Shown in pieces: positions 1,760 to 45,800 of a stretch of DNA of 64,000 bases. The position numbers and the translations under genes are program-made. This DNA comes from Ramazzottius varieornatus (lineage: Eukaryota > Animalia > Tardigrada): positions 314,679-378,678 of the forward strand of contig BDGG01000003.1 in the NCBI GenBank assembly GCA_001949185.1, in the 5' to 3' direction. Every line of letters starts with the position of its first letter. Position 1 is the first letter of the stretch. The notes under the pieces were generated by a model. That model saw only the letters and a program-made list of their open reading frames with translations. It had not been told where the DNA came from and did not search any database.

Positions 1760-4700
1760 ATGAATGATTTATTTAAATGGCTGTTTATTCTGGGAAGCAG
1801 CTGGCTGTATGTCTGCAACCTCGGTAAGTAAACCTACACAGAATTTTTGTCTACACTTGCCCTCAACTGTCCGTTTTACTCTTTGATCAAATTTGAACGC
1901 ATCCAGCTTTTGACACAACTATTAATCTTAAATTACAAAACAAAACGGAAAAGCACTTTAAATTTCAGTGGTGAGAATTTTGATTTCGGAACTTTACGTG
2001 TATAAATCTTTTCCCATTCTTGCTGGAAAACTGTCGATTCTTTTGCGATGTGTCGAAAAACTGTGTGAGATCTTTGAAAAAATCCGGGCCCGATTAAATA
2101 TACAGCTGACTCGATATGGCATGATTTACTGCATAAAAAGATATAGACGAACATATAAACGCAAACTATCTATTTGCAGACGGTGAATTTATGGTTTTAC
2201 GAGCAGAGTGTGTTTTCCCAGCTGTCTTCACTATTTCTACCGCCAAATATGACGATGAAAATTTTATACGAGGCGGTTTTACGACACGACGTCTGTGATA
2301 TGAGTTCATCTTGCGACCACAAACCATTTTCGTTCATATCTGCTATTCCCCCTTCAAAAACTTCTGAACCATGTGGACGCAATCAGATTTTCTGTTCTCA
2401 TTTTTGTTTCTTCTCATTTCAGTGCATAGCTACGACGACTTTTACTTCACGCAACATCCCCGGTTTCCCGAGAACGTGGTGGAAGGCCAGCGTTTGGTGG
2501 TCAACTGTCAAGTGGACGACGCGACATCCATTGTCTACCACTGGCAACAGAATGGGCGGAATATCGACAACACTCTTCGGCGGTGCCAGAACGGCTCTTC
2601 GCTGGTCTTCGAGATTGTCCACAGACAGCGTGACGTGGGAGAGTACCAGTGCACAGCCTTCAACACCAGCTCCGGACACAGCGTGTCTTCGTTTACCGCG
2701 CAGTTGAGCGTTGGGTGGATCGGCCAGGACGCGAAAGTAGCGGTAGTGTCACCGAAGAACGTCAAAGAAATCCATGAAGGAAACTCTTTGACTTTGAACT
2801 GCATCATCGAAGGTACTTAAAGGGGTTATAAATCTAGGTTTTCAACTGATCACAGCCTACTGTAGTCTAAAACGTGAGCAAATGAGTGAACCACAACGTT
2901 CTCTCGACTGGCGCACTCTTCCAGCCACTAACAATGACCATCTGCGCCACTTCGGGGTATCTGTATGGTTCAACTCGTTTACCCGCATCTCGTTTGTAGA
3001 AAATTGCCAAATTGAGGTCCGTTGTGGAGTACAATTTACCCGAAAATAGCTGTAACTGTGGCTTGTTTCCCGGCGGATACGCATTGATATGTATCAAGAC
3101 CTCACAAACTCGCCTTCTTTTGCAGGGAGCAAATATCACGTCACTTGGTACAAGAACTCGGTTCGTGTTTCCCTGGATGAGCGCATCCAGGTCGACACGG
3201 TGCAGCAAACGTTGAACATCAAGGCATTATCGGTCAGCGATGACGGTGTGTACTCGTGCGAAGTGGCTCTTCTGGCCAACGACAAAGCCTCAACGGCAGC
3301 AGCAGCCACCGCCACTGTTGTCAGCACCAAGAACTTTGCGCTTATCATCGCCCGCGCCAATACTCCCACCATCCGTATCGTACCACAAGATATCATCGTC
3401 AACAGAGGTGCACCGGCTCAGCTGGACTGTGCTTATGATGGTGCCGTCCGCGTTGAATGGTTCAACCAGGAAGATTCGCCCATGCGCAACTCAAGTGGAA
3501 AGAACCAGAATCATGTGCTGTTCCCTAACGGTACGCTATACTTTCGGAGCGTTGGAGCGAATCGAGACGCTGGACTGTATCGATGTGTTCCGCTGGTGGA
3601 AGAGGGAACGGAAGGCCGTGAAGCGACATCTGGCGGATACATTGCCTACGTAAAAGTAGCCGGTAAGCCCAAGTAAATCATTTGGATAAGTATTTGATCA
3701 AGTTGATGGTGGTGCCTTTGCAGTGAAACCAGAAGTGGACAGCAGCAGTATCATTCCCCAGCCAACCAAAGACGACAAGTATGTCGTGCGAGCCGGCTCA
3801 GCCCTGGAGGTCTACTGCCGACCGAAAAACCACGAGACCGTCAATCCGCCGCCGATCGTTACCTGGCTCAACAGCCACAAGGAGAAAATATCAGACTCTC
3901 CATTCCTCTTCATCGGCCAGATGCAGACCAACCAAGCTGGACAGTACTCCTGCCGGGTCGAAAACGGCTTCGGGAATCCGGAACACGCCATCAACGTTGT
4001 CGTTACAGGTACTGTAAAATGACCAGACGATAGTTGAAAGCACGGCAGACAAACCATATAGTTTTGGCAAGGGGTGCACACTCTCGACCATATCGGCTGG
4101 AAGCGTGCGCCACTTGAGTAGAGAACGATCTGAACGATTTCGTTTGCCGAGCTCTCACTTACTTCCTCTGATTCAACGTCTAATATGCGTCATGAACTGA
4201 CTTCTATGGTTTCCTAGTGATGCCGGTAATTTCACAAGAGCCTTCTGATGTGAGGGTGGAGGAAGGAAAGACATTCCGGATGTCCTGTGGCTTCAAAGGT
4301 TCAGCTGGCTCCTTGACGAACATCACCTGGCAAAGAGTGACTACCAGTATCAACGGACATTTTCAACGAATTGCCACGTCCTCCCGTATCCAAATATCCA
4401 ACCAAGACGCCTCCATGTCCTACCTGCAGGTCCTGCGCGCCCAGGCCGACGACGACAACGGTGTGTACCGCTGTCAAGTCACCACTCTCGGCTTTGACCC
4501 TGTCTTCTCAGAGAACGCCACGGTCTTCATCCGCGAAAGGCTGAAATTCACCACCAAGCCCATTAACCAGCACTTTGAGTTGAATTCCAAAGCCAAGATT
4601 CACTGTCGTGCTCACGCGTCAGAAGACGTGACTATTCAGTGGGCCTGTGAGAACGGGACAAGGTTGCCGTCGCACGTCCGATGGAACAAGAACGGGACAT

Positions 4701-6776
4701 TGGTCTTTGATACCGTGAAGAAGACGGACGAAGGATGGTACAACTGTACGGCGTCGACGACGAAGGAGAAGCCCATCAGTGTCAGTATCAAAGTGGACGT
4801 GGGTGTCTCGCCAAAGTTCACGGTCAGACCCAAGAACCATACGGCCATCATTGGAGAGATGGTCGTGCTGGACTGTCAGGCTGTGGGAGACCCCATGCCT
4901 GCCTTGCATTGGGACAAAGATGGCAAGGATAATATTACGGAATTGGGAAGATGGAAAATGATGGGCAATGGTTCGTTGGTGCTGGAGAACGCCAAGCCGG
5001 GCGACAGAGGGCGGTACGGATGCATTGCAGGGAATAAGGGAGGCTTCGCCCGCGAAGAGGTATGAACGATGCAGACTGTGCTATACCGTATGGAATATCG
5101 TTAAAAAAATAGTGTACAACGATGCTCGAAGTTCTCTTTCAGCCAACCATTCTAAAACAAATCTCTGGCGGCAGCTGATGCTTGTTTAGAATTTGTGAAA
5201 AATTCAGAAGACATTTTGGTATCGTTCCAGATTGAGCTGGACGTTCAAGAAATGCCCTCTTCGGTCACCCAAACTCTGACCCTGACCATCAGCTGTGCAG
5301 CGGGATATATTCTCTTTGTCGTGGTCCTCATCGTCTACTGCAAGCGCAGTCGCTCCAAGAAGCGCGAACCCGAGTCGTCGGCCATGACCGCCGTCAGTAC
5401 CAGTCAAGTCACACTGCAGCCCAACGCGTACGCCTACTCAACGCCCGAGTCCCAGTCCCTCTTACCCAAAATCCTGTCCCATCCACCCAGCCTCATCTAC
5501 TCACCCCGCACGGCGCATTCCTCGCATCTGTACGAGAAGAACCCGTCCGGCTCCGATCCGGCCAGTTCGGCCTACTCCAGTGCGGCCAACAGCTGCACGA
5601 TCTCCCGTCGGAATCTAGTCAATCCTCGCAAGTTGGGGAAAGGCTGGTTTGGGGAGGTCTGCCTGGCGGACACAGCGGATGCCGTCTTCTCGGTCGTGTT
5701 GGTGAAGGTGCTGGAATCGAGAGATGAGGAAGTATACAAAGCTTTCAAGACGGAGTTTAGCATGTTCCAGAAACTGGACCACGAGAATGTGATCAGAAGT
5801 ATTGGACTGTGTCCACCGAGTTCGATGAACAAAGACCTGTGGGCGGTATACGAACATTCGAGAGCAGGAGATTTGAAGTACTTTGTTCAGTCTAACGCGA
5901 AGCTGATTACGAAAGAACACTTGATCAACTTTGCCCATCAGATCGCCACGGGAATGGAGTATCTGTCGAGACACCGGTACACCCACCGCGACCTAGCCAC
6001 GAGGTAAGACTTTGGCCGACGGTCAAACAAGACAAGTTATGACCACGGTATCAGGAAAAAACCGTACGAAGTTGAGGCTTCGGATCGATAATGGCTTCAA
6101 GCTTGGCTGCGTGTCGAAAAGACGACCGGACGTCGGCAAATGATTTCACCCAGATGGTTACTTCGAGTGGCGCACGCTGTTAGTGTTGTGGGCCAAGAGC
6201 CTGCGCCACTTGGGGAGCGATCCGGACGAATCCTTCTGCCGACGTCCCAAATTAGGACTTGATTGACTTTTCGTCTTGCTAGTATTCATAGTCACTCTCT
6301 GTGAATGTTTGGTTAAAAAGACAGTTTTCTGTTCGTGCTACGACCTTATTCTTCGTCGCAGGAACTGCATCGTGGATCTGCCAGACGGACTCAACCCAAT
6401 CGTGAAAGTAGGGAACCTTTCGGTGACGTCTCAAGGCCTGAACGATGAAGATTACTTTCTTTACCGGAACCGTCGAATCCCGCTGCGATGGATGCCGGGA
6501 GAGGCAGTGTCGGAAGACGAGTACAGCGTCAAGAGCGACGTGTGGTCCTTCGGAGTTTCTCTCTTCGAACTGCTGACGTACTGTCAAGTTCAACCGTACG
6601 AAGGCTTTGCCGACACGGAAGTTTTCCGGCTGTTGACGGATGAAGAACCCTTACCGGCTTTAGTCAATCGAGACTTTGCTCATCTTGAGAAAGCCTTGAT
6701 TGTAGAATGTACACAAATCAATGCAAAAGATAGACCTACTTTCAGCGAAATTTTGTCGCGGTGGAATTTGTCCTAG
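1760..6776 (+). CDS. PTK7: PTK7/off-track-like receptor tyrosine pseudokinase (signal peptide, 7 Ig domains, TM, kinase-like domain). Exons approx 1760-1823, 2423-2812, 3127-3661, 3724-4008, 4218-5059, 5231-6003, 6362-6776
   Basis: Repeated Ig C...W...DxGxYxC motifs; TM (TLTISCAAGYILFVVVLIVYC); GKGWFGEV, VLVK, HRDLATRN, DFG replaced by NLS, PLRWMPGE, SDVWSFG; GT-AG introns keep the frame; exon 1 gives signal peptide MNDLFKWLFILGSSWLYVCNL(V)HS. Confidence 0.9.
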
Positions 6777-7111
6777 ATTCAGTCGCCAGTTGCTGTATGC
6801 ATGTTCCTTTTTTATTCCAGCTTCATCGTGTTTCTTAGAGGATGGATACTACGATTCGATTCTGCACCATGGTCCATAGAAGCCGAAACATTCAATATTA
6901 ATTTTGCAACCGGTGTATGAGAGGACGCTCCTGAAGGTTTCTTTCGTAGGGCAGTCACCGTGTGATGACCTAGACTCAGAAAAGATCAGACAATCAATGA
7001 CTGCAGCAATGGCCAAAATGGTTGAAACGTCGTTACTGTTGCACCGATATCCATTGATTGTCTCATTACAAATTATTTCTCGTTTTGATATAGAACACGC
7101 GTTGATTGGGG

Positions 7112-10100
7112 CAGGGCCGACGCGCCCTATATCGAATCAAAATCAATGGATCAAACTTCTACTTATGGGACGGTCATGGTGTCGAAACATGAAAATTCTT
7201 CGATTTGATTGATGAATCACAGTGGAGTCACTAAACTGTACTGGTGCCACAACACTTCCGTCAGAAAGTAGTCTTCGGAATCCGAAAGCTGGTTCCGGAT
7301 GCTGACCAGTCGACGTATGCTAGAAGAAGCTGAAGTCTGTATCATCACGTCAAACATTTTCGTTCGATGGTTGTCAAGATGCACCGGTATTGTTCGCACA
7401 GTCGGAACTCACAACAAGAAAAGAAGGGCAGAAGTTTCGGTTAATAAGTGCGTGAGAATTGTGTGATCAAGGCTAAGAGTACGAGACTATCCCGACCGAC
7501 AGCAAATGTTTTTGGCCTACCGTACTCAACCGATGTTAAGAAACTATGCGTCGACAATTCATACAATATTAGTCAGCATAAGTGAAAGTGCACCAATATT
7601 GACAAGGTTAGGTGAGGGAGAGCTAGTCATGACCGGCTAAAAATCCATATCATCGCCGTCGTCGAAATCCTCGCAAGTGTCGTTTTCTTCCGTTTCGTCG
7701 ATGCTCTCGTCGATCTCCATATCGGTCGGATTAGCGATCGTAGTGGGTGGAAGAGGAGAGGCTGCAGCACTGAAATCCGTGTCAGAAACGTATTTTTCCG
7801 CTATCTCACTGGGTGGGATGACGATGTGTTTGTAAACGTCAACGACAGTTAAGTCGGACAACCGTTCGTTTTTCATGGACGTCCTGAACCATATTTTTTC
7901 CCGTTTCAGCACTGAAAAACTTCTTTCCAGCACTAGAGGATGTTATTGGTACCAAAGCGTAAATCATGAATAGTTTGGTTATGACAGTGAATTGCCTGCC
8001 CAAATTTCGATCCACTATTTCTCTTATGACACCTTCGACGGAGCCGAGTGCTGGAGTCACTAGCCTTTCTTGCCACATCGCACACCAGTTTATTACTTCA
8101 AGCGCGAACCATTCAAGAAGGCTGTTTGCTTCCCCAAGATCAGCGTTGTAGAAATTCAGTGCTGGACGGAATAGAGCAGCGGAAGGCGTAGAGACTCGGG
8201 CGAGGGATGGCAGAAGAATTTCCAGCGGCTGCGGCACTTGGGAATTCTTGTCGAACCGTTCTTGTAAAAATCTTCTCATGTTCTGGATGTGAGGGACAAA
8301 TACGTTGGTGCCAAACCAGTTCTCTGCATCTGTGAGGTCCCTCACGGGTCTGTGTCCTGCGGGATCGTTTCTGCCTTCAGGCTTCTTCTTCTTGTTAGTT
8401 GGTTTAGGAATGAGAGGTGTCATTTCGTAAAGAAGAAAGGAGCCGTGATGTAGTTACAGCAACATTCGCGAAAGCTCCGTTCGACTCATTGACAGTATTG
8501 ATGAGAACAGCAAAGTAGTCAAGGGTTGTCTCGATGGAAGACAGCATTCGACTATAGTCAAGGTTTTTAGCTTGCAGGGCACCGGTCAGCTCCTTGAGAG
8601 TGGGCAGGTATTGTTGCGAAAACTGTAAGCAAAAGTTGGTGAAAACTGTCTTTTCAGAACAGAAAGTCATCTGCATTATTTACAAACTCACTGTGAGACA
8701 GAAGACGAATTTGTTGGTTAGCAAAATTTCGCGAATAGCCTTTGCGCCGTTTCGGCCACAGAGATCAAGGTTGCCGTTGCTTCTCAGGGCCTCTAGACCA
8801 TCCACCAGATAAGAACAGGAACCGAAAGCAGCGCTCGAGACATCAGCATAAGGAGTCCACCTGGTATCGCAGATGGTTGATGGTACTTTGGTACCTCTAG
8901 GGCAGCCGAAGTTCTCCAGAAGATAAGTTCTGCGCTTCGGTGTACCAAAGTACTTCCCGATCTTGTTGACCTCACCGTAGAATTTGTGGATCCACCCCAT
9001 CTGCACCGCGTTTCCAATCACAAGGTTGACCGAGTGCGCATAGCAGTGAGTGTAGATTGCTTTTGGCTGGACCTTGGTAATCTCAGCTCGAACTCTTTTG
9101 ATGCGACCCCGCATGTTTGCCGCGCCGTCGAAACCTTGGCCTCGACGAATTTGTGGGTCGAGTTCGTGATAGGTGAGTCTCTCCGTGTTCTTTTCTGCCA
9201 GTGCCTTCTCTACAGTTAGAGACAACGGAGAAAATCAGATTATGCTGGCCTAATTAAGAATGAATACTGACGCCAAGGTGCTCCTTAACGGTTGTGCTTT
9301 AAAACACATCCACAAACTCGATGAAAAACTCCTTTATTCTGAAGCCATGGAGGTACCGAATAGTAATGGACATTCGATCTATTTTGGAAAGATCTCTTGT
9401 CCCGTCAGCAATTTTTGAGAAGTGCTGCTCTGTTTGATCTGTAAAGTAACGACAGAAAGTAAAACAAACAGTACCTGACATTCTTCGACCTGATGAGCAG
9501 CTTAAGCTCTTAGTAAATACCTCAATCAGGATTTTTCTTCCGTATGTAGCTGCCCTGAAGAGCAATAAGTTTGTTTTAGAATAGTAGAATCGTAACGTGG
9601 TTTGGCAGGTTCTTGCTTGACGTTGTTAAGAAGTTATAGGTCGACAGAGTCCATTCGGAACAAATACATCGCTCCAAATTTGCTGAACCCCCATCCATCA
9701 ACATTGAACAGCTCGTGACCCGTGCTGATCTTCATTTCCTTACTTTTCAACTTGCATTTGGTGCCGCGGAAAGCAATTTCCTGTCGGGCTAGAAGTTCGA
9801 CGATTTTTAATGACGAAATATAAACGGAAACCTTGTAGCTGTTCTTGGGATCAAGCGGTAATATGTTGGTCTCTTTGAATGCAAGGGCATTTGCTTCCGC
9901 TTTGATATGATAATGTCGGTTGACATGTCTAACTGCGTTCTCGGGAGCCTGGTAGAAATTGGTGATTGGAATATTGACAAACTCACCGACTTTCTTGGTC
10001 ATGGGTACCCCAACCGTGAAACCCAACGCGCCGCAACGGCAGTAAACTGAACTCTTTTGTTGGACCATTCCAGCCATTCATGGTCTTTGTGATTTACGAA

Positions 10101-23052: not shown

Positions 23053-23106
23053 AGGTGGACGAATTTCCGTTTTCGGTTTGAATTTCAATTACAGTAACTG
23101 CTCAAG

Positions 23107-24633: not shown

Positions 24634-26401
24634 ATGAAGCTTCTACTGTGTGCTCTCCTGCTAGTTGCAGGTGCATCGGCTTTGAAGCGACAGACCGATT
24701 TCCTGGACGCCTTTCCCGAAAGCTGGTACGAGGAAGCCAAGAACGCCAAGGATGACGGCCTGCCGGATATCCCGCATTTCCTGGACGCAGATGAAGATTT
24801 GTCCCAGTACTTCGGCGATAGTTTGATGGCCACCGGCCGCGGTAACAAAAACGTTCTGGAAGTGGCTGCTGAGAATGGAGCTACCATCTTTGTCAAAGCG
24901 GCGAAATTGGTCGGCCTGGAAGATGAGCTGTCCAACACAAGTAAGTTCAGTATGCAAGTGCATGACCCATGCTGCGGTCAACCTGGCGCATGCGCAGTCT
25001 TACGCGTCAGTGCGCATGACAGCTTGACCAGTGGTCCGATGCGCAATGTATCACCCTGTATGGAGTGTGACGTCATTCATCAGTTCATGGTGTTAATCAA
25101 GAATCAACCGATTACGCCGCTCTTCTGCAGACAACATCACGGTCTTCATCCCCACCAACCGAGCTTTCCTTCGTCTGGATAAGCTCATCTACCTGTACTT
25201 CCTTCGCTACCCCATGCGTCTTCGAGCCCTCATCCAGTACCACATGATCAATGGATCATTCCGCCTGGACAAGCTGAAGGACGACCGAAGCTACAACACC
25301 CGTTTGAGAAACTTGACGGCTCGATATGATGTGTACGGTCACGACCACAGCAACAGGACGGTAAGAAATTTCTTCGCGGAAATTCGCCTCGAGTTGGCTG
25401 ACTAGCGGTTTGCTTTGTGTATCGTGCAGACTCACGTCATTCAAGGGGCGCACATCAACTGTGAACAGCGCGACATGGATGCCTCCAACGGTGTGGTCCA
25501 TTTCATCGACGACGTTATCCAGCGCATTTCCTACTTCAGCAGCTACAAGGCCCTGTCTGGATGCCCGCAGTTCAGCACCCTTTTCGACGGTTTGGCTGTG
25601 GCTGGACTCACCGACAAGCTAAAGAGTGCGTTCCTGTTGTTGTTATAGATGGAAGAAGGAAATTTACCGATAGACAACCTTTGGTGTTTTCAGATGGTTC
25701 GCTGACCATCCTCGCCCCGACTGAGAAGGCTTTCCGACGCCTTCCTGAAGGCGTATGGGAGAAACTTATCAAGGACAAGAGCGCCTTGACCGGTAAGACA
25801 TCTGATCCATTTTTTCATATTCGAAATTAGCTTAGAGAAAGTCTCGAAACTCTGCAAACAAACCCGAGAAGACTGGTCTTTGATCCAAGTGGCGCACGCT
25901 TTCAGCCTTACCGGCCGGAAGTGTACTGCTCTTGGAAAAGGACCTTGGCGAGTTGAATTGCCTATGGTTTAACTACTTCGAGTTTCGACTGAAAGTCGGA
26001 ATTGCCGTGAAATACTCTGGAAAATTCACGGGTTATTTCTACAATTGTAGCTGTCCTGAGTATGCATGTTCTGAACAAGACCTACTTCGCACGAGGTTTC
26101 CGCGATAACGACGTTCTGCCTTCGCTGAACAAACAGTCGACCGTGACCGTTCATGTTCGAGGAGACCGTACCGGTACGGACAGTACTTTTATTCATGTCG
26201 GAAGGTAAGGTAGACATCTTTCACTGACTTCGTCTTTCAGGTAAGGAAGCCAACTGCCGGAATTGCCGCTACGAAGTCTTCGTCAATGAAGCTAAGATCG
26301 TCTACTTTGACGGAGTGACAACCAGCGGAATCATTCACGCCATCGATCGCGTCATGATCCCCAAAGGCTTGTTAGAAGAACTCACAGGTGAAACTGTGTA
26401 A
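24634..26401 (+). CDS. Secreted two-FAS1 (fasciclin/TGFBI-like) protein, about 6 exons
   Basis: Signal peptide MKLLLCALLLVAGASA; TVFIPTN and TILAPTEKAF (H1); ASNGVVHFIDDV and SGIIHAIDRVMIP (H2). Confidence 0.85.
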
Positions 26402-26935
26402 CGCGTCGAGTCTGCTGTACTCTGGTTCAAATAACTTTCCGCTTCGCATGATATTCTGTTCTTTCTCTCTGGGTTGATTTCCTTCTTTCTGCTCGGGTAC
26501 GCGTTGTGCTGTAATACTGTTTTCGTTTTATTGAATTTCGACTTTCAGCCTACAACGCAGTACTGATTTGGCTATTTACTTTCCGCGAGCAATCGACTTT
26601 TGCGTTGTGATAAAGTTGGCTTGCGTGTAAACAAAGGTGAATCAGTGACGAGGATCGCTTTCTGAACAGTTCTCGTTAGCCATACCACGAACTCACAGTA
26701 CCGGTTCGACATGAACCTCCTTTGCAATCGGTCAGTTCTCTGCTGCTCTGCTAGAATTCGACGGAAATATTTAGTGGCGGGAATTACTTTGCGCTACCTT
26801 GCCGCCACCATTCAAGTTTCGTGAAAAAGCAAAGCTGGTTGGTTATAATATAGAATAGCATATGGTACATCAGTACTCTAATATGAACAGACATATATGC
26901 AACAAATGTTTTGAAAATAGGCCTTGGTTTTACAG

Positions 26936-29859: not shown

Positions 29860-32800
29860 CTACGCCATGTTGTTCCTTCGTGGCTTTTTGGCGTAAAAGA
29901 CCTCATCCTCCGATTCGGTTTCATCATCGAACACCTCTTCTTGCCGCAACGGCCTGAAGCCTTCGCGTGACGAGCGTCGTGGTCCGCCAATCAGGTTCGT
30001 GCCATCTTTGAGGGCTGGCTTGAAGCGGTAAAGCGTGTCCTTCCACCGTGACGCGGAAGACTGCCGATTGCGACGTACGCAGCAGTAGCCTAGTACCCCG
30101 CACAGTACGAGAGTGGGGACGATGAAGAAGGCCAGCATGAGGAAGGAGTATCCACCAACATCGGGCGAGAGTGGATTAGCAGCCAGCAGATTCAAGGAGG
30201 TAGAACTGCTGTTGTTGGATTTTGCTGCTGACTGTTTTTGATTCGTCAGTTTCGACACCACAGTTTTTTCCGATCCTACAAGAAAGGTAATCATCCATTG
30301 GGACATTCGGATCCTCGTTACCTCAAGTGGCGCACGTATCCAGTCAAAGAAAACTGCGCGACGAGAGGTGACAATCCTTCCGAGATTATTTGCCGGCCTC
30401 TCGTTCAGCAAACGTACCTTTGAGATGGAACTGCTGGATATTTCCATTCAGTTCCACGACGAAAATGCACTTCTGATCCCGAGAAATAGACACTGCATGG
30501 GGTGAGGCCATCGGGGTACTCGGCGAGTTGACCACTCCGATGGTTGTGCCTGTGGTGACATTAACCAGGATGGCTTGGACCGTGGTAAATTCTCCTGGAA
30601 GATCCGCAGCGCCATTGACCGCTACCATCAAATCGCCTAAACAAACAAGGAATAACCGTTACTTTCCGCCTTGTCATGTTTCGCAGTCCCAGGCATTGAT
30701 TGATAAACCGTATGGGCGAGCATTTCATGCACCTGCATACACTTGTACTGATAGCCTATTTGGATTGCTGTATGCAGGTACTGTAAATATTCGCTGCGTC
30801 CGCGCAGTACGTCATCGTACAAGTGAAGTACAGCCCCGGTCCAGTTTCACGGATTGCGCAACCCCCTACCGGGGTGCATCGTCACGTACGTGTACGTACT
30901 GCGCGGACGCAGGGAATATTCACAGTACATAAAAATCAGTCGCGCTAGACGAACGCATTCTCCTGCAGACAGCATCACTGCGACAGCTATGCAGTTTGAT
31001 GTACGCAGGTGTATGCAAGTTCCTCACATGACATCTGCTGGCTTCCTCCTTGTTATGTCCGTACCTGCAGTGTCGATAGCGAAGACTTTGAAGCCAAATT
31101 CCGGTACTTGATACAGTCTCAGAAACTGCAAGTTTTGCGTGTTGAACGCCTGGACCCTTCCGTTCTCGCGGTCGGCGATGAACAGAACACTCTCGTCGTC
31201 ACTGAGCTTGATGTCGTGTGGAATCAAGAAGTCGGCCGGAGCTGGCTGGATGGATCCCATGAAGGCTAATGGGTTGTACTGCTGTTGACCAAAGTGGCTA
31301 ATGTATCTTCCGTCCGGTGTGAATTTGATGACGCGGGAGTTGCAGTACCCGTCCGCCACGTAAAAGTCGCCGTTGGAATGAACGGCCACCATGGTGGGCT
31401 TACAGAAGTGCTGACCATCGTGGCCCGGCTGGAACTGCGTACCTGCAGAACCAGATTGAAAATGAAACTGGGGACATATTTCTCGAAACCGTTACTGGAA
31501 TACATACCAAGAGTAAGAGTTGGTTTGCCGTCGGCGAGTTTCATCACCTGGTGGAGTGCCACGTCGGTTACCCAAACGTCACCGGCTTTGTCCACTGTGA
31601 TACCATGGGGCAAGTAGAACCTGCAAGAAGAAGGGTGATCGCTTGAGTCATAAGTGAATACGGAAAAACAACCGATAGCTCGGAAGGCAGTTTTATGGGC
31701 GTACATATTTTGCCCGAATTCTTTCTTGATGGCACCGGTCTTTGCATCAACCACGATGATGGCGGCTTCCTGGATGGGTCCTTCTTGGATCTTGGTGTAA
31801 ACGTTATCGAAACCAAAGGATGCACCGTCCCATTGATGACTTCGACGGTTGAATATGTACCTGTCGAAAGCAAACACCAGCCTTAATTTCGAACGAACTG
31901 CGAGCCGGAAGTCGACCGGAAGTGAAATGATACGACTTTACGCTTACACATTGTCATCAGTATGGTCTAATGCAATGCCAGAAACCTGTCCGAGCTTCCC
32001 CAGTTTGGCACTCCATCTCGCGACTTCCTCATAAACTATAAAACAAGGTGTCAAAACCTGACAAAAATACCAGCAATTGTTTTCTGAAATAATATGGCAA
32101 AAGTTGTTCTTACTGTATTTTGAGCTTGGTGATTTCGGTTGCCCAACTACCACATTGTTTCCAGCCGGTTCGTCCATCTGGTGTCCATGTTCTTGTTCAT
32201 GATGTTCTCCTTGATGTCCCAAATTATTCCCATAATTACCGCCAATGGTCGGGTCCGGTCTTTTGGCAATGGTGATGCTGGTATCGAGCAGCTCGCCTTC
32301 CCTGCCCCTGCCTCGTTCAAAGTTCTCTCCCAAATTCTCCATGCCCGGCCTTCGTCTTGGCAGCTTGATTTCGTTAGCAGCCACATCTTCCGGTAAAGTC
32401 TGTTTGAGAGTGACATTCGCTTCCGGCATGGGCATCGGCGGCATCGTCGACGAGGTGGAGCCAGCCATTCCCGTCGCACCATGATGTTGATGACCCATGA
32501 CTTCCGACGCCGGTAGCGGGATGGAAGCTTCGCGAGGCAGCTGGTAATCCATCAAGTTCATATCCACATCCGTGCATCCTTCTGCAAAGTTCATATAGAC
32601 CTTGGACCAAATTAATACTATCAAAAATGAAGAATATTCTATTTCACCTCGGACGGTGTTTCGGTCAGCGTAGTACATCATGTAAAAATTGCACATCTCG
32701 TCGTTGTGTGTCGGACCCATGATGGTAGGTGTGTTACGTGTGGTCGAATTGTAGACGCACCGAGCGCCGAGAATGGTTCCGGCCGTGATATTGTGAGGCT

Positions 32801-34325
32801 TGTCCATATGGTAGAAGGCTTGCGGGTTTTGTGGGCTCTGCTTGCCCAACAACGTCCATTTGCCTTCGTCCTGATCCTCGGGTTTCATGTACCAGCCGGA
32901 GATGACCGTACCGAGGCTATGCGCGTGAGTTCGGAAACCGAAAGGATGGATGACCAGGTTGTCGGTGTAACGACACATCACGTTAACATTGACCACTGTG
33001 GGAAAAACAAATGGAAATATCATAGACTATGAAAGCTCGGCGAATAAACTGGACAAACCTCCAAGTAGCGCACGCTTTCGGTGTTATTGGGTGTGAGCGT
33101 GCGCCACTTCGAAAAACGTGCAAGATTGTTTCCCCAAGTGGCGCACATTATTAGTGTTATTGGCTGCGGATGTGCGCCACTTGAAAAACCGAGCTTGTCG
33201 AGTTTGTTTGCCCAAGTCCCATATAGAGTCTCTTGATGATACTAGTTTAATGAGAAAGGGAGGGTTGTTACCGGGTGTCCGAGCAGGTATCCACTGGCCA
33301 CCACCAGCCATGAGGAGGATGCCCGCCGCGTACCGTCTCGGTTCGCTGGTAAGTATCATGGAAATGCCCGAGTTATCGTTGGTGACCACCGCGCTGTAAT
33401 GGATTTGGATAAAGATGCCTTTGACATCCGTGTTCTGACCGATCTTGAAACCCACATCTGCGAAGAAAAAAGAGCAAAAAGTCAATTAGCGCTGTCCGAC
33501 AGTCGTCTGCTCAATCTCAAGGTCGGCCGTCTTGAGACGCTGTTCGGAGGCGACCAACCATCGATGCGTCACACAAAGGCTGCTCAAAAATGTTTACCGT
33601 CGGGGAGTTGTAAAGAAGGAGCGTCCTTCGCCCAGGCATACAGAAACTTGGAAGCTCCTCCGCACGCAGCCTGCACTGGGTGATCGTTCAAACATTTCCA
33701 GGCGTTGTTGGCGCCTTGCGTCTTGACGGGATTCGAGCACCCGTATATCAGAATATGGTGAACTTGCTCAGCTGAGGCGTGTGGCACGTATTTCTCTAAA
33801 AAAGAAAAGTTCATCGTCATATCATAACATCCGGGAAGTTCATTGTCAGTAGGAATATTAGGTGACTACAATTGGCAACGATGCAGCCACGTGCGACTGT
33901 GTTCCCTGAACTGTACTCACGGCATGAAACACAAAAAATGAGTGTGACGTGACCGCCACATTTGCTTAAATCATTAGATTCATTGAGCATGATCTAGTAA
34001 TATTCATGATGTCACACGCAGACGAGATCGGGCAGCCAACTTTTGGTCATTTTACGGTTTTTTCTCTTCAAATTCCACTTTAGCGAATTCGGGTCTTCCA
34101 GAACTCGCCATCTGGAATATACATCCAGGTATTGCACTTACTTATGTATCGAACATCGAAAGCCGTGTTAACTCCCATACAGTAATATTCATCTTCTGTG
34201 GTAGTATTAACATGAGGCATCCACAACGCAATTACATCTTCTTCGTCTTTCGCGCTGAGTGATCGTTCAGCTACAACTCCACATATTCCCACCAGGATAC
34301 ACAACAGGATACATCTGAGAATCAT
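29860..34325 (-). CDS. PAM: Bifunctional peptidylglycine alpha-amidating monooxygenase (PHM + PAL + TM + cytosolic tail), about 11 exons
   Basis: Cu ligands VHHILIYGC, IQIHY, RTHAHSLG, EMCNFY; PAL NHL repeats FYLPHGITVD, VWVTDVALHQV, FYVADGYCNSRV, IADRENGRVQ; TM; tail REGF..DDETESEDE. Confidence 0.95.
30781..30925. mobile_element. 145-bp intronic MITE with TA TSD
   Basis: About 32-bp TIR CTGTAAATATTCGCTGCGTCCGCGCAGTACGT and its near reverse complement, flanked by TA. Confidence 0.8.
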
Positions 34326-35901
34326 GTTTTCAGAGATCGGGGGAAAACCGTCCGATGGGAAGCGGTAATTATACAGCAGATGGAAGCAGCTGGCTCACAA
34401 AATCAGCATAGCAATGATCACGTAACGTCTATGCTGCAGGTGGAAAATCGATGCCAAGTAAGAGCTGCTGCACTTTCTTCACCGATCGCACATACGTCGC
34501 AAACAGGTTTCCGAGAGGTATTCAGACAATGTGTGTGCGTTTTTTAGCCTCTCATCGTAGTAGTACCGCAATCAAATGAGAAGCACCTTGAACAGATACA
34601 GGTAGACTGATCATGAAGCAGACCCACTCGTACACATTTCTGTTTGTCTTTCAACGAGGATATGCAGCTCACACAATCAAGTTGCGCAGTGACGTCACGC
34701 GGCACACCCTGCACTAATCCGGCTCGTTCCGCTAGCAACGTCCGTTTCACGTGCTCTGTGGAACTTCGGTTCTCTTATCATGCTTTGATAACTTCCAGTT
34801 TGCTCAGGATTCCGAGTATTCCTTGTGCACACAAAACAACTCGCGTGCGCTGAGGTATCGAGTAAAAATCGCAGAAATGCACATGTAGGAGAGCGAACAA
34901 AATCTGAAGACTGGCCTCGTTCCTACTGTATGTGCCTATCACTAATACACTATCCGTGCCCTTCAGCCTCGTTCCCTTAGGTCTCCCATGCCAGTCCTGC
35001 CAGTGCTCCCTGTGACAAAGCTGTTTCGACGCAGTAGGTATCGACGGCCTGAAGTTTCGATGCATGAGTACGCAAGGCGAGATCACAAATTGCGACCTGT
35101 TTGCTCTTTCGTGATGTTATTTCGGTAGGGGAATAAGGGAGTGCGGCATCCGGATGCACTAAGGTTCCCTCATGAGGGTAAGAAAGGCAATTTTTATGAG
35201 GTGTCGATAGGACGATATCCCTCTCCAGATACTACGTGTTTTTTGCACAGTCACGGAACACCTTCGTGGCCATACGAAGGTGTTCCATACGAGCATACGC
35301 CGCAAAAGCGCGCTACTTGCATTGGGGCTCCCCATCGAAGTCGGGAGCTTCACCGTGGAAGGAAAAAGCCACGCACCTCCCGTGTTTGCACAAAGACGTT
35401 TGTATCGTCCTGCATACACCACATCATTTGGGCATTGCTACAGAAAACATATTTGGTCTAATTATGATGAGTAGCTGCAGTCCCGCCGATAAGCAGCCGA
35501 TCTAGAGTTCAAGAATGCTAATATTAGGGGAGCCGGAAATTATCATAATTATCAGCGGTACAATGCGACCCGTGGCACGCTGACTAATTCAGACGTATCT
35601 GCCACAGTCTTCCGCCAAAGGCGACTGTACCGTATCTGGACAAAACTTGTTCTAGAAATCCCATCAAATACATGACACACAAAGAATTGTTTAACATGAC
35701 CGATACATCTGCAATGCAGTAGCCTCGCTCGGGTTACATCAAACGGCAGCAAAACCGTACCCTTATCACTGGAATGTGTTACAGTGGCCACCCACAACAG
35801 CATCAGGTACAGACAATTCCAATAAATATTAAAAGATATGTCTAGAGATCGAGAAATCAACCACATCTTTCATGACCTTGAGATGCGCATGTTTTGAGTC
35901 C

Positions 35902-39494: not shown

Positions 39495-40857
39495 ATGTCT
39501 TCTTGCGACGCTCCTTCGATACTCTACAGAGGACAGATGCTTCCTAAACCAGCAGTTCAGCAAGTTCTTGTACAAAGTAGGATGGCAGAAAAGTGTACGG
39601 TTCAAGCCACGAAGAGGGAAGGATGGACTAAGCAAGCAGAAGAAAGCCTCCTCCAGTGGTTAGAAACACCTGGAAACTACGACAAGTTTCGGTCTGCTCC
39701 GCAAGACAAAGGAGATGGAAGGAAGAGAACTAGCTCCAACACCAGGATGGACATCACGCGGAAGATCGTGGAGCATCTTGCAAAGTCGGGTGCTGTAAAG
39801 ACGGAAAAACAAGTAACCACTAAAGTCCATAACCTTGTTGGGAAATGGAAAGAGGCTCATCTAGCCAAGACTGGGACTGGTTTCGGTGTCAATGGCGAAG
39901 GAACCAAAAACGGAAAAGCGCTACGGGGTAAGACGAACTTTCAATTTACGGAACTGTGAAAAAACATTTCATCTTGCTTTCAAATGAACGATTTGCTCAC
40001 TTTCGAGTTTTCGCTGGTGGTTAGACAGTTCTGATTGGTTGATTATTTCAAAGCGCTATAAGGTAAGATGAGGCTGTCAAAATACGAAAGTGTGTAAATA
40101 CGGTTTGTTTAAGCTTTTACCGAACGATTTGCTCACTTTCGTGTTTTCGGTGATGGCTCAGCAGCTTTGATTGGCTGATTATTGCAGAGACCATACTCGA
40201 CATTTGCAAGTACTGGGACCGTCTTGATCCTGTTTTCCGCGATCGTGCTGGGATGTCTGCACCTTTTACAGGTGATAACGAAGATGGCGTGGCGACCAAC
40301 GTTTTCACACTAGCCGTAACAGATAACACGGAAAAGACTATGGAATTTCCCGAAGGGACAGCCGAAGTTTCAGCAGAAGTACCGAAAGACAGACCGACTT
40401 CTCGCTACTCTGAATTAGAGGACCATCGGTCGGTTGCTGATAAGATGCTTGACGGTGATTATGTTCCATCAGACGACGAAGAAACTCTCACTGGATCACC
40501 TGGCTCAGCTTCAAAGAAACGTCCAAAAAAATTCAAGTCTTTGTGTGACGGCATGGATAAAAAGCCAAAAGAGAAAACAATGGATCTGGTAGGGATACTC
40601 GTGGCTAGCGGGAAAGAAAGGAATGAGCGTGCAGCGGCTAGGAACGAGGTCATGGAACGACGATTCACCCGAGAGTTGGACTTGAAAGAAAAAGAACTGA
40701 GACTGAACGAACAGCGACAGAAAGATGATCACGAGACGAAGATGGAAGAGCTCAGAATTTGACACCAAGAGATTGATCTACGCAAAGCCGAAATGGAATT
40801 CAAACGGACGGAGATGCTTCTAGAGTTGGAGAGATTGAAGCAGCAGCGTTTACAGTA
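39495..40857 (+). CDS. Harbinger Myb/SANT-like DNA-binding ORF (intron approx 39928-40187), premature TGA at 40760-40762
   Basis: WT..EESLLQWLETPGNY..V..KVHNL..KWKEA..TGFG; CKYWDRLDPVF; the coiled-coil tail continues in frame after the TGA to TAG 40857. Confidence 0.75.
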
Positions 40858-41116
40858 GTGGTTTCCACCATGAACACCAAGACACGAAAGTTAGGAAATT
40901 AGACTTCTTACTTTTTGCTAAACCAAAAAATCCAACTTTCTAATTCTAATCGCTATTGAGACTTGAAATCGAAGTGAACTGGACTGAATCGAATACGTTT
41001 TTCTGGAATAAACGAACTGTTGATATTTTCTTTCTTCCAGAGCATCGATCGTTGGAGAAACGTTCTCTGAATCATGAAATGATACGAAAAATTAGCTTTC
41101 ATGATTCCACTTAAAT

Positions 41117-42364
41117 TTACTGCCATCTTGAGACATATTGCTTGATTCTTTCTCGTTTGGTTGAACCTCGTTCAGTCGCTACCGCTTGTTGATTCGGGTT
41201 TGGAATCGGGCCGTCATCACCATCATCTTCCACTGTCCACTCTTCATCATATTCGTCGTCCAGAAGCATATTATGTAGCATGCAACACGTTCTGATCCAG
41301 TACACAGCGAATTCGTGATCTTTCTTATTCTTGATTCTTAGTCGCAAGGCTTTTAAACTTTGGAAACGGCCTTTGAGCATTCCAATAGTCTGTTCCACGA
41401 TAACCCTAGCCTGACTATGAGCTGTGTTGAAAGCCGTGTTCTCGTGACTGTTGGCCAGGGGTTTCTTGAACGTCGGGACTATGATATCCGATACGGGATA
41501 GGCGCTGTCAGCAAGCAGATATTCATGACCAGAAAAATATTTGAATGGATTCAGAGCTAGCTTCGAATACATGAACACTCTGTGATCATGAGAACAGCCT
41601 GGGAAACCAGCGAAAACATGACGGATGCGTTTCAGATCATCGCAGACGATCATGGCATTAATGGCATAGCTACCTTTCCGCGTGTAGTAATCTTCCCCAC
41701 ACATGGATGGAGCTTCCTGTAAACCAATTAGTGACCCGTCAACATATCCGAGGCAGTGGGGAAACCCTTGGTTTTTTTCGATACGAGCTTTGATGGTAGC
41801 TCGCTCGCTCGTGTTAGGCCAAGTAACGACAGTCTTTTCCAGCGAGAGTAACGCGTACATCACTCTTTCGGTGTAAAGGCTTACAGTGCCCTCTCCAATT
41901 CCCAAACGCGATCCAGCAGTCCATAAAGACGAAGCGGAATCGTCGAATCCAAACCGCGACAATGCTACCATAAGCTGATCAGGCACAGGAGCCTGTTCGT
42001 GATGACTCTTGTTCCTGAAGACAATGTGAGAGCCTATTTTGTCCACAACAGCGAAAAATGCTTGCCTGGTCATTCGGGCGTTTCTCTTGAAGGTCAGCTC
42101 ATCTGACTGGAATATCAGGTAGGCTAACTCTTTCGTTTTTGGTGAGTTCACTCGCGCGGAAAGGTAACGGCTTTGAGTGGCGAAATATCGAACGACAGCT
42201 ATCTTGATTTGTTCATCATCTTCCGAACTGCTGCCATCAGTTTCGCACAACATCTCATCCTCTTCGTCGCTACTAGAATCCAGAACATCATGAAGCACAA
42301 GATCTGTCAGAATTTTGACGTCGACTGACCGAACAAGTTCTTTACGGTTAACTAGACGAGGCAT
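41117..42364 (-). CDS. Harbinger (HARBI1-like, DDE_Tnp_4) transposase, intact 415 aa
   Basis: GYVDGS, YYTRKGSYAIN, GCSHD, LLADSAY, RVIVEQTIGMLKGRF, LHN. Confidence 0.93.
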   Translation of the reverse strand: MPRLVNRKELVRSVDVKILTDLVLHDVLDSSSDEEDEMLCETDGSSSEDDEQIKIAVVRYFATQSRYLSARVNSPKTKELAYLIFQSDELTFKRNARMTRQAFFAVVDKIGSHIVFRNKSHHEQAPVPDQLMVALSRFGFDDSASSLWTAGSRLGIGEGTVSLYTERVMYALLSLEKTVVTWPNTSERATIKARIEKNQGFPHCLGYVDGSLIGLQEAPSMCGEDYYTRKGSYAINAMIVCDDLKRIRHVFAGFPGCSHDHRVFMYSKLALNPFKYFSGHEYLLADSAYPVSDIIVPTFKKPLANSHENTAFNTAHSQARVIVEQTIGMLKGRFQSLKALRLRIKNKKDHEFAVYWIRTCCMLHNMLLDDEYDEEWTVEDDGDDGPIPNPNQQAVATERGSTKRERIKQYVSRWQ

Positions 42365-42821
42365 GGTCGAACTGCTAGTAAGTGAGCGAGAAACAGAAAA
42401 CTAAACTTTGTCACAGCTGGAAGTTCGAGATGCATTCTCGGTGACGTCACCTTGGAATCTACGTCATTGAATCGCTACCGTGATTTAGCCGTTATTTCGG
42501 CACTCAGAATTCAGGTCGTAAATTGGCTGTCTGATTGGTGGATTTCGCTAAATCAAGATCCAACTAAATAAGCCTGATTTAGATAAATCTGAATTCTGAG
42601 TAGGGCCACTGTTCTGTAATTCTGACGTCACCACCCTGATATCTGATAATCCTCCTGGTTGATTGTTGATTTGTTTTGACGTGAGCTATTAGTAACAACA
42701 TCTTACCAGTTGCCTTTCTCAGTTGAGCTAGTTCTCGTTTTCCGGACTCTAGTCCCATCACCTTCCGTCGAAAGCTAGGTGGATTATCCGGATCAAACAA
42801 AGCTAGTGCTTTTAGCCGAAC

Positions 42822-45800
42822 ATGGATTGCTTCCAGGACAAGAGCGCCGGCCACAAAGTGACGCATGTAGCGCTATCCATCAAGCAAGACTTGATCGCAT
42901 ACTCCACCGTCAGAGAGGTAGGACGTCTTTTTCTTCATCGCGAAGGCCCCCTTCTCCACATGGTTATTCGCTGCAGGTACTTGTGTACAACAACGACTGG
43001 ATGAAACTAGCGTCATACAAATCCCAATCGTTCCTGACCAACGAAACTGTCTGCAGGCTCGCCTGGCGTCCAGACGGCCGAGGTAAGAATATCGCACTGT
43101 TTCAGTGGCGCAGGTGGTCAAGTAAAACGCATGATTAGCTGCGCCGCTCGATAAAGGGTGCTTGACGTCGTGTACCTGCATACGCTGAGACGTTCCTTTA
43201 CTGTTCATTACTTGTATGCAAGTGGAGGGACAAATAGGTGCAATGGCTTGTAGCTTCCTTTCTTACTGTGGATTAATTTTACAGCTCTGGCCATCGGATA
43301 CTCAAGTGGGAAAGTCCTCGTTAAGAACGTCGAAACACATGAGACCATCGCGGAGCTGGACCTGGAAAGTAAGATCGACTTGCTGGACTGGGCGCCATCG
43401 TACTGGACGCAGGCGGATATGGACTACTTTACCTCCCAGCGGATATTCCAGGATAAAACAGAATCTTACATCCAAGAAGTCGAACTATCCAAATCATCGT
43501 AAGCTAGTTCCTCTCTCGGAGCTCAAGACCGCCCCTCAAACGTCTTTTATTGCAGGAATGTCGGAGGGGAATCGCAGTAAGACTGTTCGCACGAACCGGC
43601 GTACATAAATTCATCTCAATAATCTGGCAACGAAATCGCTCTCAATTATTTTTTTCCCCAGCAAGGATTCCATAAAGTCATCTTCGGCGATGCAGATGAA
43701 AAACCAAAGAACGTGAGCCTTGTCAAACATCGAGCTGGAAAATCGTTTTGTATTTTATCCGGGGTTATTCACAATTTTCTCTGGTTTAGATTGAGCATCC
43801 TTTCCGTGGTGACCGAATCGCATTCCTTACACCTTTACGCCTTCGGCTTTCTCCCTTTAGCTTTTATCGACCTCAGCGAAGCGGTTGACTTTCAGGTACT
43901 ATCTGCGAAATGAACTCTTTCACTCAACTACAAGAAAACTCTTACGAATGAACTTTTTCTAGATTGATCGAATTCAGCAGTTTTACTTGTCCAGAGACTT
44001 CTCTTCCCTCCTCATTATTCTCAAAGACACTACCAACTCTCTCCACACCCTCACCTACAACACGTCCATCATCCAACACCACTTCGAAGAACTCGAGTTC
44101 CTGGCGAAGCACTACGATCTGCTGTGGTCCTACAGAAAGATCATCGAAGTGGCCTTCAAGCGTCTGTCCGAGAAGAAGGATGAAAGCCGACAAGAGATGG
44201 AGAGCGAAATCCAGAAGGTGCTCGATCTGTTCCTGCCAGACTACAACGCGGCAGTTGCTGTCAGGCCGGAGCTGGCCAAGAGCGAGCAGCCGAAACACTT
44301 CCTGTTGGCTGCGCTGACCGAACAGCTCTTCATGGGGACCCTCCATCCAGCGCTGGAACATTTCTTCGATCACGCAGTGTCCCCACAGACACTAATCAAG
44401 TACCAGACGGGCATTGAGGGCATGCTAAAGACGTTTAGACGGGATACGATGCTTCCTTTTCGGCAGTAAGACATCGTGTATCTAATCAAGTGGGGCACGC
44501 TTTCAGACAGTAATACCAAAGTCGTGCGCCATTTGGACAGACGATCCTGTCGAGGTTTTGCTCGTCGAGCTACCAATTCATTCTTGTAATTTTGTAAATC
44601 ATCAACAGTACTTTCCTAGAGGTAAAATTTTTGTTGCAGGGCCTTAGAGTCTTGTATGGTATCGCTTGTCCTTCTCAACCGCTGGGTGGCGAACGAAAAG
44701 AACTTCAAGCCGATCGGTGCGATGCGCGAAGCCTTCGAGAAAGCCCGGCAAGACTGCTCGTCCTTCTTCCTAAAAATGTTTGAAGTACAATACGTATGTT
44801 CCGACAACCACCTCGCATGGAACGCTTTATTCGTCCCACGATTGTCTTTTCGAGTAGTCTTTTAGTTTTTGTGTAGGTTGCGGAGAAAGAGGCAAAGCGT
44901 TGTCTGACCACCGTCTCGTGGTTGATCAACCAAATGGAAACGCTGAACCCTCCTGACCAAGGCGCCACCAGTCGTAGTTTCTCCGAACGGGACCTTGATT
45001 CGGTCATCTCCGTCTTCCAAGACCTTTTCGGACGGGACGACGAAGAACAGAGTACCGAAGACGGAGTTTCGCAGTGGAGGATGTACGGGTTCGGGGTGGA
45101 CGACTACTTCCTGGACCAAGACTTGCGGTACCCGCTCGATCCTCATCAAAGTGACTTCCAACCGTATTACGACACGCTAACGAACAACATCGAGTGCGTT
45201 TGAGTAGGTCCAACTAGAACTTATGGACAAAATCTCGTTAAAAGCTCCCACCCGTTTTTTCCAAGGTTCCTCATCCACCTGCATACAAAGTAAGGGGTAA
45301 ATACATAGTGTTCGTGTATGCAGGTCCGTGTAACCGTCAGTTTTGACGTTAGCAATCAATTTTCTGTAATCTTCCACCCAACTCGCATACAGTAACTCGC
45401 GCCAACAGTAGTTCATATTATATAGCGGTAAGTGCGAGGCCATAATCTCTGCCTTCCGATGGTAGAGTTTCTGTAGACTGTGGAGAACGTCGTCGACCTG
45501 CATACTTACAATCGTGTAGTTTTCACCTAGCTTCTGTATGTAGGTGTGTGAAAGAGGTCCTTTTTTAGTTTCAGACCTTGGTTTTCGGTCTGCATAATGC
45601 GATTAAATCTTACATAATTTAGTTTTGTCTTTTCACAGGCAGGATGAAGAAAGAGGTTTTATTCAAGGTCCCTTCCTCGGCGACCTCGCCTCCATCCCCT
45701 TTCACCCACCCCGCCGCGCCCTCTTCGCTTACCATCGGACCAAAACAGCCAAGCAGGAATTGACAGCCTTCAACCATTCCTTAGAGCTAGCCTTCTCTAA

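What the first reader, a model, noticed from the sequence alone, without database searches (positions are those of the whole stretch)
2905..44535. Intron-restricted inverted repeat with a fixed 25-nt spacer (CAAGTGGCGCAC-N25-GTGCGCCACTTG), 9 copies in 4 unrelated genes
Seen: cores at 2905-2953, 4068-4116 and 6164-6212 (three PTK7 introns), 25886-25934 (fasciclin intron), 30324-30365, 33062-33110 and 33135-33183 (two PAM introns), 43102-43150 and 44487-44535 (two ANAPC4 introns). In 8 of 9 copies the arms are exactly 25 nt apart, although the spacers are strongly diverged. The 30324 copy has an 18-nt spacer and the 25886 right arm is degenerate. Several copies sit in a larger palindrome of about 110 bp with outer arms like (GT)CGGCAAA...TTTGCCG(AC). 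I saw no intergenic copy even though intergenic/TE DNA is abundant here, and the host introns are among the longer ones. Inference: conserved arms with conserved spacing suggest a binding site for a dimeric protein or a functional pre-mRNA hairpin (splicing aid, small-RNA precursor, gene-body mark). The alternative is an old MITE that targets or survives mainly in transcribed genes.
Basis: partly seen in the sequence, partly recalled or inferred. Interest (0 to 1): 0.8.

Follow-up and report, generated by a model that had tools for sequence, protein, structure and literature searches.

The report
Tardigrade palindromic mini-transposon sitting in introns
The paired motif is the centre of a 123-base mirror-image repeat already catalogued as an abundant gene-less transposon of the tardigrade Ramazzottius varieornatus, so its fixed spacing is inherited; what stays open is why all eight insertions in this window lie in introns, likely because the element lands in gene bodies.

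Summary
Observation confirmed: 9 cores at 8 loci, 8 with a 25-nt spacer, all in introns of four genes. The organism is Ramazzottius varieornatus. The arms are not a free-standing site. They are the centre of a ~123-bp whole-length palindrome, and the spacers are homologous and self-complementary. About 660 genomic contigs carry pieces of it. It is catalogued: Peona et al. 2024 (PMC11071193) list ramVar1-7#DNA/Sola (123 bp, 4-bp TSD, 56-bp TIR) among 56 library rows with this core, all R. varieornatus. The masters have the 25-nt spacer, so the spacing is inherited; a 24-nt variant exists. No strand bias; three loci keep 3 of 4 TSD bases. Not in print in my 10 searches: the intron bias (8 of 8 loci; p 5e-6 to 0.05 by null) and a core somewhat better kept than the outer arms (p 0.004-0.05). 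Both rest on one window; no genome was held. Best reading: known Sola-type MITE, likely inserting in gene bodies. Host co-option is possible but unshown. The scan's earlier notes hold no look-alike sequence.

The parts
2869..2991 (.). Full-length copy (123 bp), core 2905-2953, in PTK7 intron 2813-3125; flanks match at 3 of 4 TSD bases
4036..4156 (.). Full-length copy, core 4068-4116, in PTK7 intron 4009-4217; flanks match at 3 of 4 TSD bases
6127..6248 (.). Full-length copy whose outer arms match the ramVar1-56/-63 subfamily by eye, core 6164-6212, in PTK7 intron 6004-6361; flanks match at 1 of 4 TSD bases
25846..25972 (.). Copy with decayed right arm, core 25886-25934, in the fasciclin-like gene's intron 25793-26050
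30300..30402 (.). Truncated copy, 18-nt spacer (core 30324-30365), one outer arm not recognisable, in PAM intron 30276-30417 (gene on minus strand)
33031..33220 (.). Tandem copy: one pair of termini around two cores (33062-33110, 33135-33183), in PAM intron 32996-33271; flanks match at 3 of 4 TSD bases; tandem forms recur in the published library (ramVar1-10, -25, -48, -50)
43102..43187 (.). Most decayed copy (core 43102-43150, profile E 0.005), 19 nt after the 5' splice site of ANAPC4 intron 43083-43284; outer arms not recognisable, right end approximate
44487..44574 (.). Copy lacking a recognisable left outer arm (core 44487-44535), 21 nt after the 5' splice site of ANAPC4 intron 44466-44639
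2371..6776 (+). Host gene: PTK7/off-track-like receptor kinase; the true first exon probably lies further upstream (predicted)
24634..26402 (+).
30060..34686 (-). Host gene: PAM-like (Cu2_monoox_C and NHL domains); ends approximate
42822..46705 (+). Host gene: ANAPC4 (Pfam E 0.001, below the curated cut-off); intron 8 boundary unresolved

Best explanation
These are decayed copies of a catalogued 123-bp palindromic non-coding DNA transposon of Ramazzottius varieornatus (ramVar1-7, labelled Sola), likely moved by a transposase supplied from elsewhere and likely inserted mainly into gene bodies, where only intron landings survive. Shown: the whole unit is one inverted repeat with the 12-mers 37 nt inside each end. 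The 25-nt centre is copied from the master elements. Copies number at least in the hundreds. They entered existing short introns in either orientation. Inferred: the transposase binds the ends and the internal paired motif, which would explain why master subfamilies vary in the outer arms and spacer but keep the core. Insertion makes a 4-bp duplication. A preference for transcribed chromatin, with exonic insertions purged, would give the intron-only pattern. The hairpin in pre-mRNA is a by-product that is spliced out.
For: Identity: library rows ramVar1-7#DNA/Sola (complete, 123 bp, 4-bp TSD, 56-bp TIR) and curated sisters 1-0, -6, -8, -16, -23, -26, -39 carry the same core, termini and 25-nt centre. 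The 11-mer occurs 59 times in 56 rows: 55 in the R. varieornatus RepeatModeler sheet, 1 in its REPET sheet, 0 in the H. exemplaris sheet; rows 1-0 to 1-34 all carry it. The window's own half-arms rebuild a 123-nt palindrome. Abundance: 664 and 658 contigs of two DNA runs of one sample lay on 33021-33230 at 80% or more. Inherited spacing: 6 of 6 informative joints from other copies give 25 nt (6 of the 12 rows shown, 45 in all, my arithmetic). One spacer base is missing in 5 contigs, about 5% of depth, and ramVar1-52.raw has 24 nt. TSD: 3 of the 4 loci with both termini recognisable match at 3 of 4 bases (p 0.001; p 0.01 counting all 8 loci). Orientation on the sense strand 5 versus 3 among the 8 copies with 25-nt spacers. 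Host introns minus the element are of ordinary size. Intron bias: 8 of 8 loci, against about 2 of 14 for other palindromic elements (my hand classification), Fisher p 1.4e-4; AWWT target density is similar in introns and non-genic DNA, 29 versus 22 per kb.
Against: Targeting is not shown: no genome was held, the window was picked for this pattern, and counting by 4 genes under the most conservative null gives only p=0.05. One library entry, a 490-bp hAT element (ramVar4-518), carries a full copy, so not every genomic copy need be intronic. No perfect TSD survives in the window, and the curators marked the TSD 'Unclear' for 5 of the 6 family rows I saw in Table S1. No autonomous partner was found: 'Sola' occurs only for ramVar1-7, and no long entry with these termini was seen, though cells are cut at 400 characters. 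The core is better kept than pure decay predicts: 26 of 216 bases changed, arm-to-arm mismatch 21% against 33% in outer arms and 50% in the inner stem. No copy with a decayed core or only one arm turned up, despite 62-97% detection power with a core-masked profile.
Confidence: 0.6

Rival explanations
1. The same catalogued MITE with no real targeting: it inserts broadly, and the all-intron pattern is a local accident of this window, helped by tolerance of short insertions in introns.
For: Only 4 genes are involved; p rises to 0.05 under the most conservative genome-wide null (using the 12.38 Mb intron and 23.89 Mb intergenic figures). A copy sits inside a hAT consensus. The window was selected for the pattern.
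Against: 0 copies in about 37.5 kb of non-genic DNA (20 kb after removing large transposons) against 8 in about 5.6 kb of intron target; other MITE-like elements fill that same non-genic DNA.
Confidence: 0.2
2. The MITE has been co-opted: the two inverted cores, 25 nt apart, would form a site for a host DNA-binding protein, perhaps transposase-derived, and intronic copies are kept by selection, as HIM-17 uses CERP2/CELE2 motif pairs in Caenorhabditis.
For: Core changed at 26 of 216 bases against 16-19% per arm inferred for outer arms (p 0.05 to 0.004). Three copies lack a recognisable outer arm but all keep both cores, and no solo half was found. Precedent: PMC9757741 (passages).
Against: The spacing and much of the core-versus-rest contrast are already present among master elements. 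The excess is borderline once master asymmetry is allowed for, and A/T runs in the outer arms may simply mutate faster. No binding or chromatin data. The family core is absent from the H. exemplaris sheet, and the paper reports no shared families. The nematode case concerns promoters; 'intron' does not occur in that paper's text.
Confidence: 0.13
3. The copies act as pre-mRNA hairpins that aid splicing or give small RNAs.
For: 8 of 9 folded segments have z of -2.45 or lower; the 30324 copy gives -1.0.
Against: Any palindromic transposon folds this way. The inner stem is 50% mismatched arm to arm. Introns without the element are of normal size, and 29 of 37 introns splice without one. No Rfam match.
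Confidence: 0.05
4. An Introner-like element that created these introns on insertion.
For: Two ANAPC4 cores lie 19-21 nt from the 5' splice site, and the PAM copy fills most of a 142-nt intron.
Against: Splice sites lie 15-134 nt outside the element in six of eight loci, with unrelated flanks; residual introns have normal length; the exon ends beside the ANAPC4 copies match the terminus only at background level (7 of 14).
Confidence: 0.02

Closest known systems
ramVar1-7#DNA/Sola and sister consensuses (ramVar1-0, -6, -8, -16, -23, -26, -39 and about 45 raw rows), Peona et al. 2024 Mob DNA 15:10, PMC11071193 (parts 1-3 of 6 of the text, passages, supplement Tables S1, S3, S4 in part)
   Same: Same species, 123-bp length, whole-length palindrome, termini, core and 25-nt centre; tandem-core variants also listed.
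   Different: The paper gives no genomic distribution ('intron' and 'genic' occur 0 times in the main text). The window's copies are old and decayed; three lack an outer arm.
Sola1 MITEs (Sola1_NA) of Bombyx mori and Rhodnius prolixus, PMC3845634 (passages)
   Same: Short non-autonomous element with TIRs and a 4-bp duplication; AWWT target called a Sola1 hallmark. Consensus loose ends beyond this family's right terminus are A/T-rich.
   Different: Those have 28-36-bp TIRs around a unique interior and an identified autonomous partner. Here the whole element is a palindrome, no partner is known, and an AWWT preference is not established.
CERP2 and CELE2 MITEs bound by HIM-17 in Caenorhabditis, PMC9757741 (passages)
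   Same: Abundant MITE whose inverted repeats carry a motif pair at a narrow spacing (12-16 or 23-28 bp).
   Different: Those are promoters with shown binding, reporter activity and cross-species conservation, and use two different motifs. Here one motif is mirrored, copies are intronic, and no function is shown.
Gene-body-targeting transposons (Tnt1, Tos17), PMC7337890 (passages)
   Same: Precedent that a family's distribution reflects insertion preference plus later selection, and that some families favour gene bodies.
   Different: Those are plant retrotransposons measured from new insertions. The same paper reports old DNA transposons as depleted from maize gene bodies, the opposite of the pattern here.

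Membership tests
ramVar1-7 repeat family of R. varieornatus | Host species | tested here: met
   Window ORF 19481-20281 is 100% identical to RvY_06553; next hits 38-50% in other tardigrades and unnamed records
ramVar1-7 repeat family of R. varieornatus | 123-bp palindrome with the same termini, core and 25-nt centre | tested here: met
   Window-built consensus is 123 nt with the core 37 nt from the end; compared by eye, not by alignment, with library rows; window spacer consensus differs from ramVar1-8 at 1 of 25 bases
MITE (non-autonomous TIR DNA transposon) | Short, non-coding, terminal inverted repeats | tested here: met
   121-127-bp copies with matching ends
MITE (non-autonomous TIR DNA transposon) | High copy number, interspersed | tested here: met
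   664 and 658 contigs laid, 92% running on into unlike sequence
MITE (non-autonomous TIR DNA transposon) | Target-site duplication | tested here: inconclusive
   3 of 4 bases at 3 of 4 loci with both ends, none perfect; library says 4 bp for one row, 'Unclear' for five
MITE (non-autonomous TIR DNA transposon) | Empty sites or insertion polymorphism | not testable with these tools
   The DNA runs laid are of one sample
Sola superfamily | 4-bp TSD, AWWT target for Sola1 | tested here: inconclusive
   A/T-rich consensus beyond the right end; per-copy flanks could not be read
Sola superfamily | Autonomous element with Sola DDD transposase and shared termini | not tested
The Sola label is the curators'.
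Introner elements | Element ends supply or abut the splice sites | tested here: not met
   15-134 nt of unrelated flank at six of eight loci; residual introns normal. The defining feature is recalled.
Co-opted MITE site (CERP2/CELE2 type) | Motif more conserved than neighbouring element sequence after insertion | tested here: inconclusive
   p 0.004 to 0.05 on 9 cores
Co-opted MITE site (CERP2/CELE2 type) | Host factor binding and regulatory effect | not testable with these tools
   Needs ChIP, ATAC, EMSA or deletion

The most novel reading that the evidence does not exclude
What is probably the commonest repeat of R. varieornatus is confined to introns genome-wide, perhaps in as many as a fifth of them (8 of 37 here), and its mirrored core is held by selection as a site for a host protein: a transposon-spread gene-body mark in an animal that survives extreme DNA damage.
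Probability: 0.12. Interest if true: 0.75.

Novelty: already known. Interest (0 to 1): 0.3.

Why it matters
The element itself is ordinary and catalogued, which removes the fixed spacing as evidence of function. The residue is worth one cheap genome-wide analysis. If the family really avoids intergenic DNA, it would be a clear animal case of a DNA transposon aimed at gene bodies, and a contributor to intron length in a compact genome: it doubles the length of 8 of 37 introns here. If the core also proves selected, it would be a second case of MITE co-option like HIM-17, but inside genes.

Tried and rejected
Whole-genome test: no genome is held, so intron enrichment rests on one window. Metagenome scan for the paired core with 15-35-nt spacers: 68 loci, 0 with a 25-nt spacer, flanks unlike this element; not this family. 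RNA versus DNA contig counts as a proxy for genic location: 10/41 and 18/63 for this family against 21/66, 12/50, 4/20 and 6/16 for other repeats; no difference, and a weak proxy. No run is on record as RNA; the splice joints come from runs guessed to be RNA. Two further runs (another organism's, and a very small one) laid 0 contigs on the element; no evidence either way. Per-position variation among genomic copies: 0 of the 40 rows shown (48 in all) fall in the core arms, 32 in spacers. I gave this little weight: seeds favour the arms, and differences near alignment ends are not listed (the reference's own change at 33067 does not appear). Spacer-indel deficit: 1 event against 3.6 expected, p=0.12. 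Weak matches at 25436-25506 (coding exon) and 8227-8255 (transposon ORF) rejected as chance. Rfam: none. CTCF-like reading of the core: resemblance recalled from memory and imperfect; the passages seen do not state whether this species has CTCF; untested. The original Sola paper is not held. Literature searches; none showed a description of this family's intron distribution. Subscription papers, Dfam and the authors' repository were not seen.
Full report
Observation. A pair scan gave 17 pairs within 6 mismatches: 8 at a 25-nt spacer, one at 18 nt (30324), and no other length more than twice. The single arm occurs 19 times at up to 2 mismatches against 4.64 expected. The copies at 33062 and 33135 share one pair of termini, so there are 8 loci. 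RNA-like contigs splice out 25793-26050, 30276-30417 and 32996-33271. Spliced open frames support the PTK7 and ANAPC4 host introns. Gene names are backed by homologues or Pfam for PTK7, PAM and, weakly, ANAPC4; the fasciclin name was not confirmed.

Organism. A window ORF is 100% identical to RvY_06553 of Ramazzottius varieornatus, with other tardigrade hits at 38-50%. That genome is 55.83 Mb, with 12.38 Mb of intron and 23.89 Mb of intergenic DNA (PMC5531438, passages).

Anatomy. Aligning all 18 half-arms shows similarity running about 37 nt outward from each 12-mer and inward through the spacer. A consensus from 12 half-arms gives a 123-nt palindrome. The eight 25-nt spacers, once oriented, agree at 134 of 200 positions; 200 shuffles reach at most 104. 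So the spacer is the descended centre of one long inverted repeat, not free sequence. Orientation on the sense strand is 5 versus 3.

Abundance. Contigs of two DNA runs of one sample laid on 33021-33230 at 80% identity or more number 664 and 658, and 92% run on into unlike sequence. This counts only copies close to one old reference pair, so it is a floor. Scaling 8 loci per 64 kb to the genome gives about 7,000, probably too high because the window was selected. Six of six informative joints from other copies give a 25-nt spacer (12 of 45 rows were shown). One spacer base is missing in 5 contigs, about 5% of depth.

Identity. Peona et al. 2024 (PMC11071193) curated this species' repeats. Table S1 lists ramVar1-7 as DNA/Sola, complete, 123 bp, 4-bp TSD, 56-bp TIR. 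The core 11-mer occurs 59 times in 56 rows: 55 in the R. varieornatus RepeatModeler sheet, 1 in the REPET sheet, none in the H. exemplaris sheet (cells are cut at 400 characters). Rows ramVar1-0 to -34 all carry it; I infer from that numbering that it is among the most abundant families. The eight curated masters have a 25-nt centre (counted by eye) but differ in outer arms and spacer; one raw row has 24 nt. The search was for the core, so rows with a changed core are under-counted; two such variants were seen (ramVar4-518, 1-284). Five sister rows have TSD 'Unclear'. In the window, 3 of the 4 loci with both ends recognisable match at 3 of 4 flanking bases (p 0.001; p 0.01 over all 8 loci), none perfectly. 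No autonomous partner was seen.

Intron bias. I counted 37 introns in nine genes (introns of four or five other genes were allowed for as 600 bp). Eight hold the element. About 5.6 kb of intron target has 8 loci; 37.5 kb of non-genic DNA (20 kb without large transposons) has none. The chance is 8e-8 to 5e-6 by locus and 3e-4 to 2e-3 by gene. With genome-wide figures it is 2e-4 to 2.5e-3 by locus and 0.014 to 0.05 by gene. Other palindromic elements in the window are about 2 of 14 intronic (hand classification; Fisher p 1.4e-4). Planted copies at 25-35% divergence were found 77-100% of the time, so few intergenic copies should have been missed. Host introns are long only because of the insert: residual median 92.5 nt against 83, p=0.59. 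Against strict restriction, a hAT consensus carries a full copy. By eye, another hAT row has a copy just after a splice-donor-like site, a lead only.

Is the core selected? Against a leave-one-out consensus the core differs at 12.5%, the outer arm at 42% and the inner stem at 37.5%, but subfamily differences inflate the last two. As per-arm rates, p is 0.004, or 0.05 after allowing for asymmetry in the masters. No core-decayed or half copy was found with a core-masked profile (power 62-97%). This is suggestive, not established. Hairpin folding (8 of 9 segments z of -2.45 or lower) is expected of any palindrome.

Mechanism. Shown: a high-copy, whole-length inverted repeat, inherited spacing, insertion into existing introns in both orientations. 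From the published label and general knowledge of cut-and-paste transposons: movement by a transposase in trans with a 4-bp duplication. Inferred: the internal core is a transposase-binding site kept across masters, and insertion favours gene bodies with exonic hits removed. I put this at 0.6, no real targeting at 0.2, co-option as a protein site at 0.13, RNA hairpin function at 0.05 and Introner at 0.02. That the element is the catalogued family is close to certain.

Novelty. The element is already known. My ten literature searches showed no account of its intron distribution, and the source paper does not mention introns. Two of that paper's supplementary files could not be read, and Dfam and subscription journals were not seen. 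Earlier findings of this scan: none by sequence or place; one unrelated foldback element by words. Verdict: real, mostly explained, with one testable residue. Interest 0.3.

Noticed in passing
window 30637-31064: A second, unrelated high-copy palindromic element (30778-30928; depth up to about 12,000 against 23 single-copy), apparently nested in another (30716-31030), fills a PAM intron.
   Followed up: partly
window 39160-42610: Two-gene PIF/Harbinger-like element: open DDE_Tnp_4 ORF (41117-42400, minus) and a Myb-like gene (39474-40762); depth about 200, few differences between copies, so probably recent.
   Followed up: partly
window 52163-56307: DIRS-like retroelement (ORF with phage-integrase SAM-like domain, RT/RNase H-like frames by eye), flanked by related short tandem repeats at 50192-50349 and 56483-56621; a Tc1-like transposase lies at 50907-52000.
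   Followed up: no
window 57763-59048 and 61370-61871: Long foldback elements: 250-nt arms at 58439-59048 (91%), multi-part arms at 57763-58332, and a nested pair at 61370-61871.
   Followed up: no
window 29061-29454 and 38600-39000: Further high-copy repeats outside coding exons, depth in the hundreds to thousands.
   Followed up: no
window 22745-23843: LYR-motif gene and RBMX2-like gene lie about 60 nt apart on the same strand, possibly co-transcribed; names by eye.
   Followed up: no
window 25626-25693: Fasciclin-like intron with donor GTGCGT; contig pieces stop at 25625, but its joint was not among the rows shown.
   Followed up: no
window 8227-8262: Weak likeness (E 0.15) to the element's right arm inside an open reading frame of a hAT-like element (label by eye; no Pfam hit); treated as chance.
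   Followed up: partly
L008, L011, L012, L014, L031, L048, L050, L053, L060, L064, L068: Eleven metagenome loci share a GC-rich palindromic repeat with the same 11-mer arms and a related 32-35-nt centre; looks like a bacterial REP-like family, unrelated to the tardigrade element.
   Followed up: no
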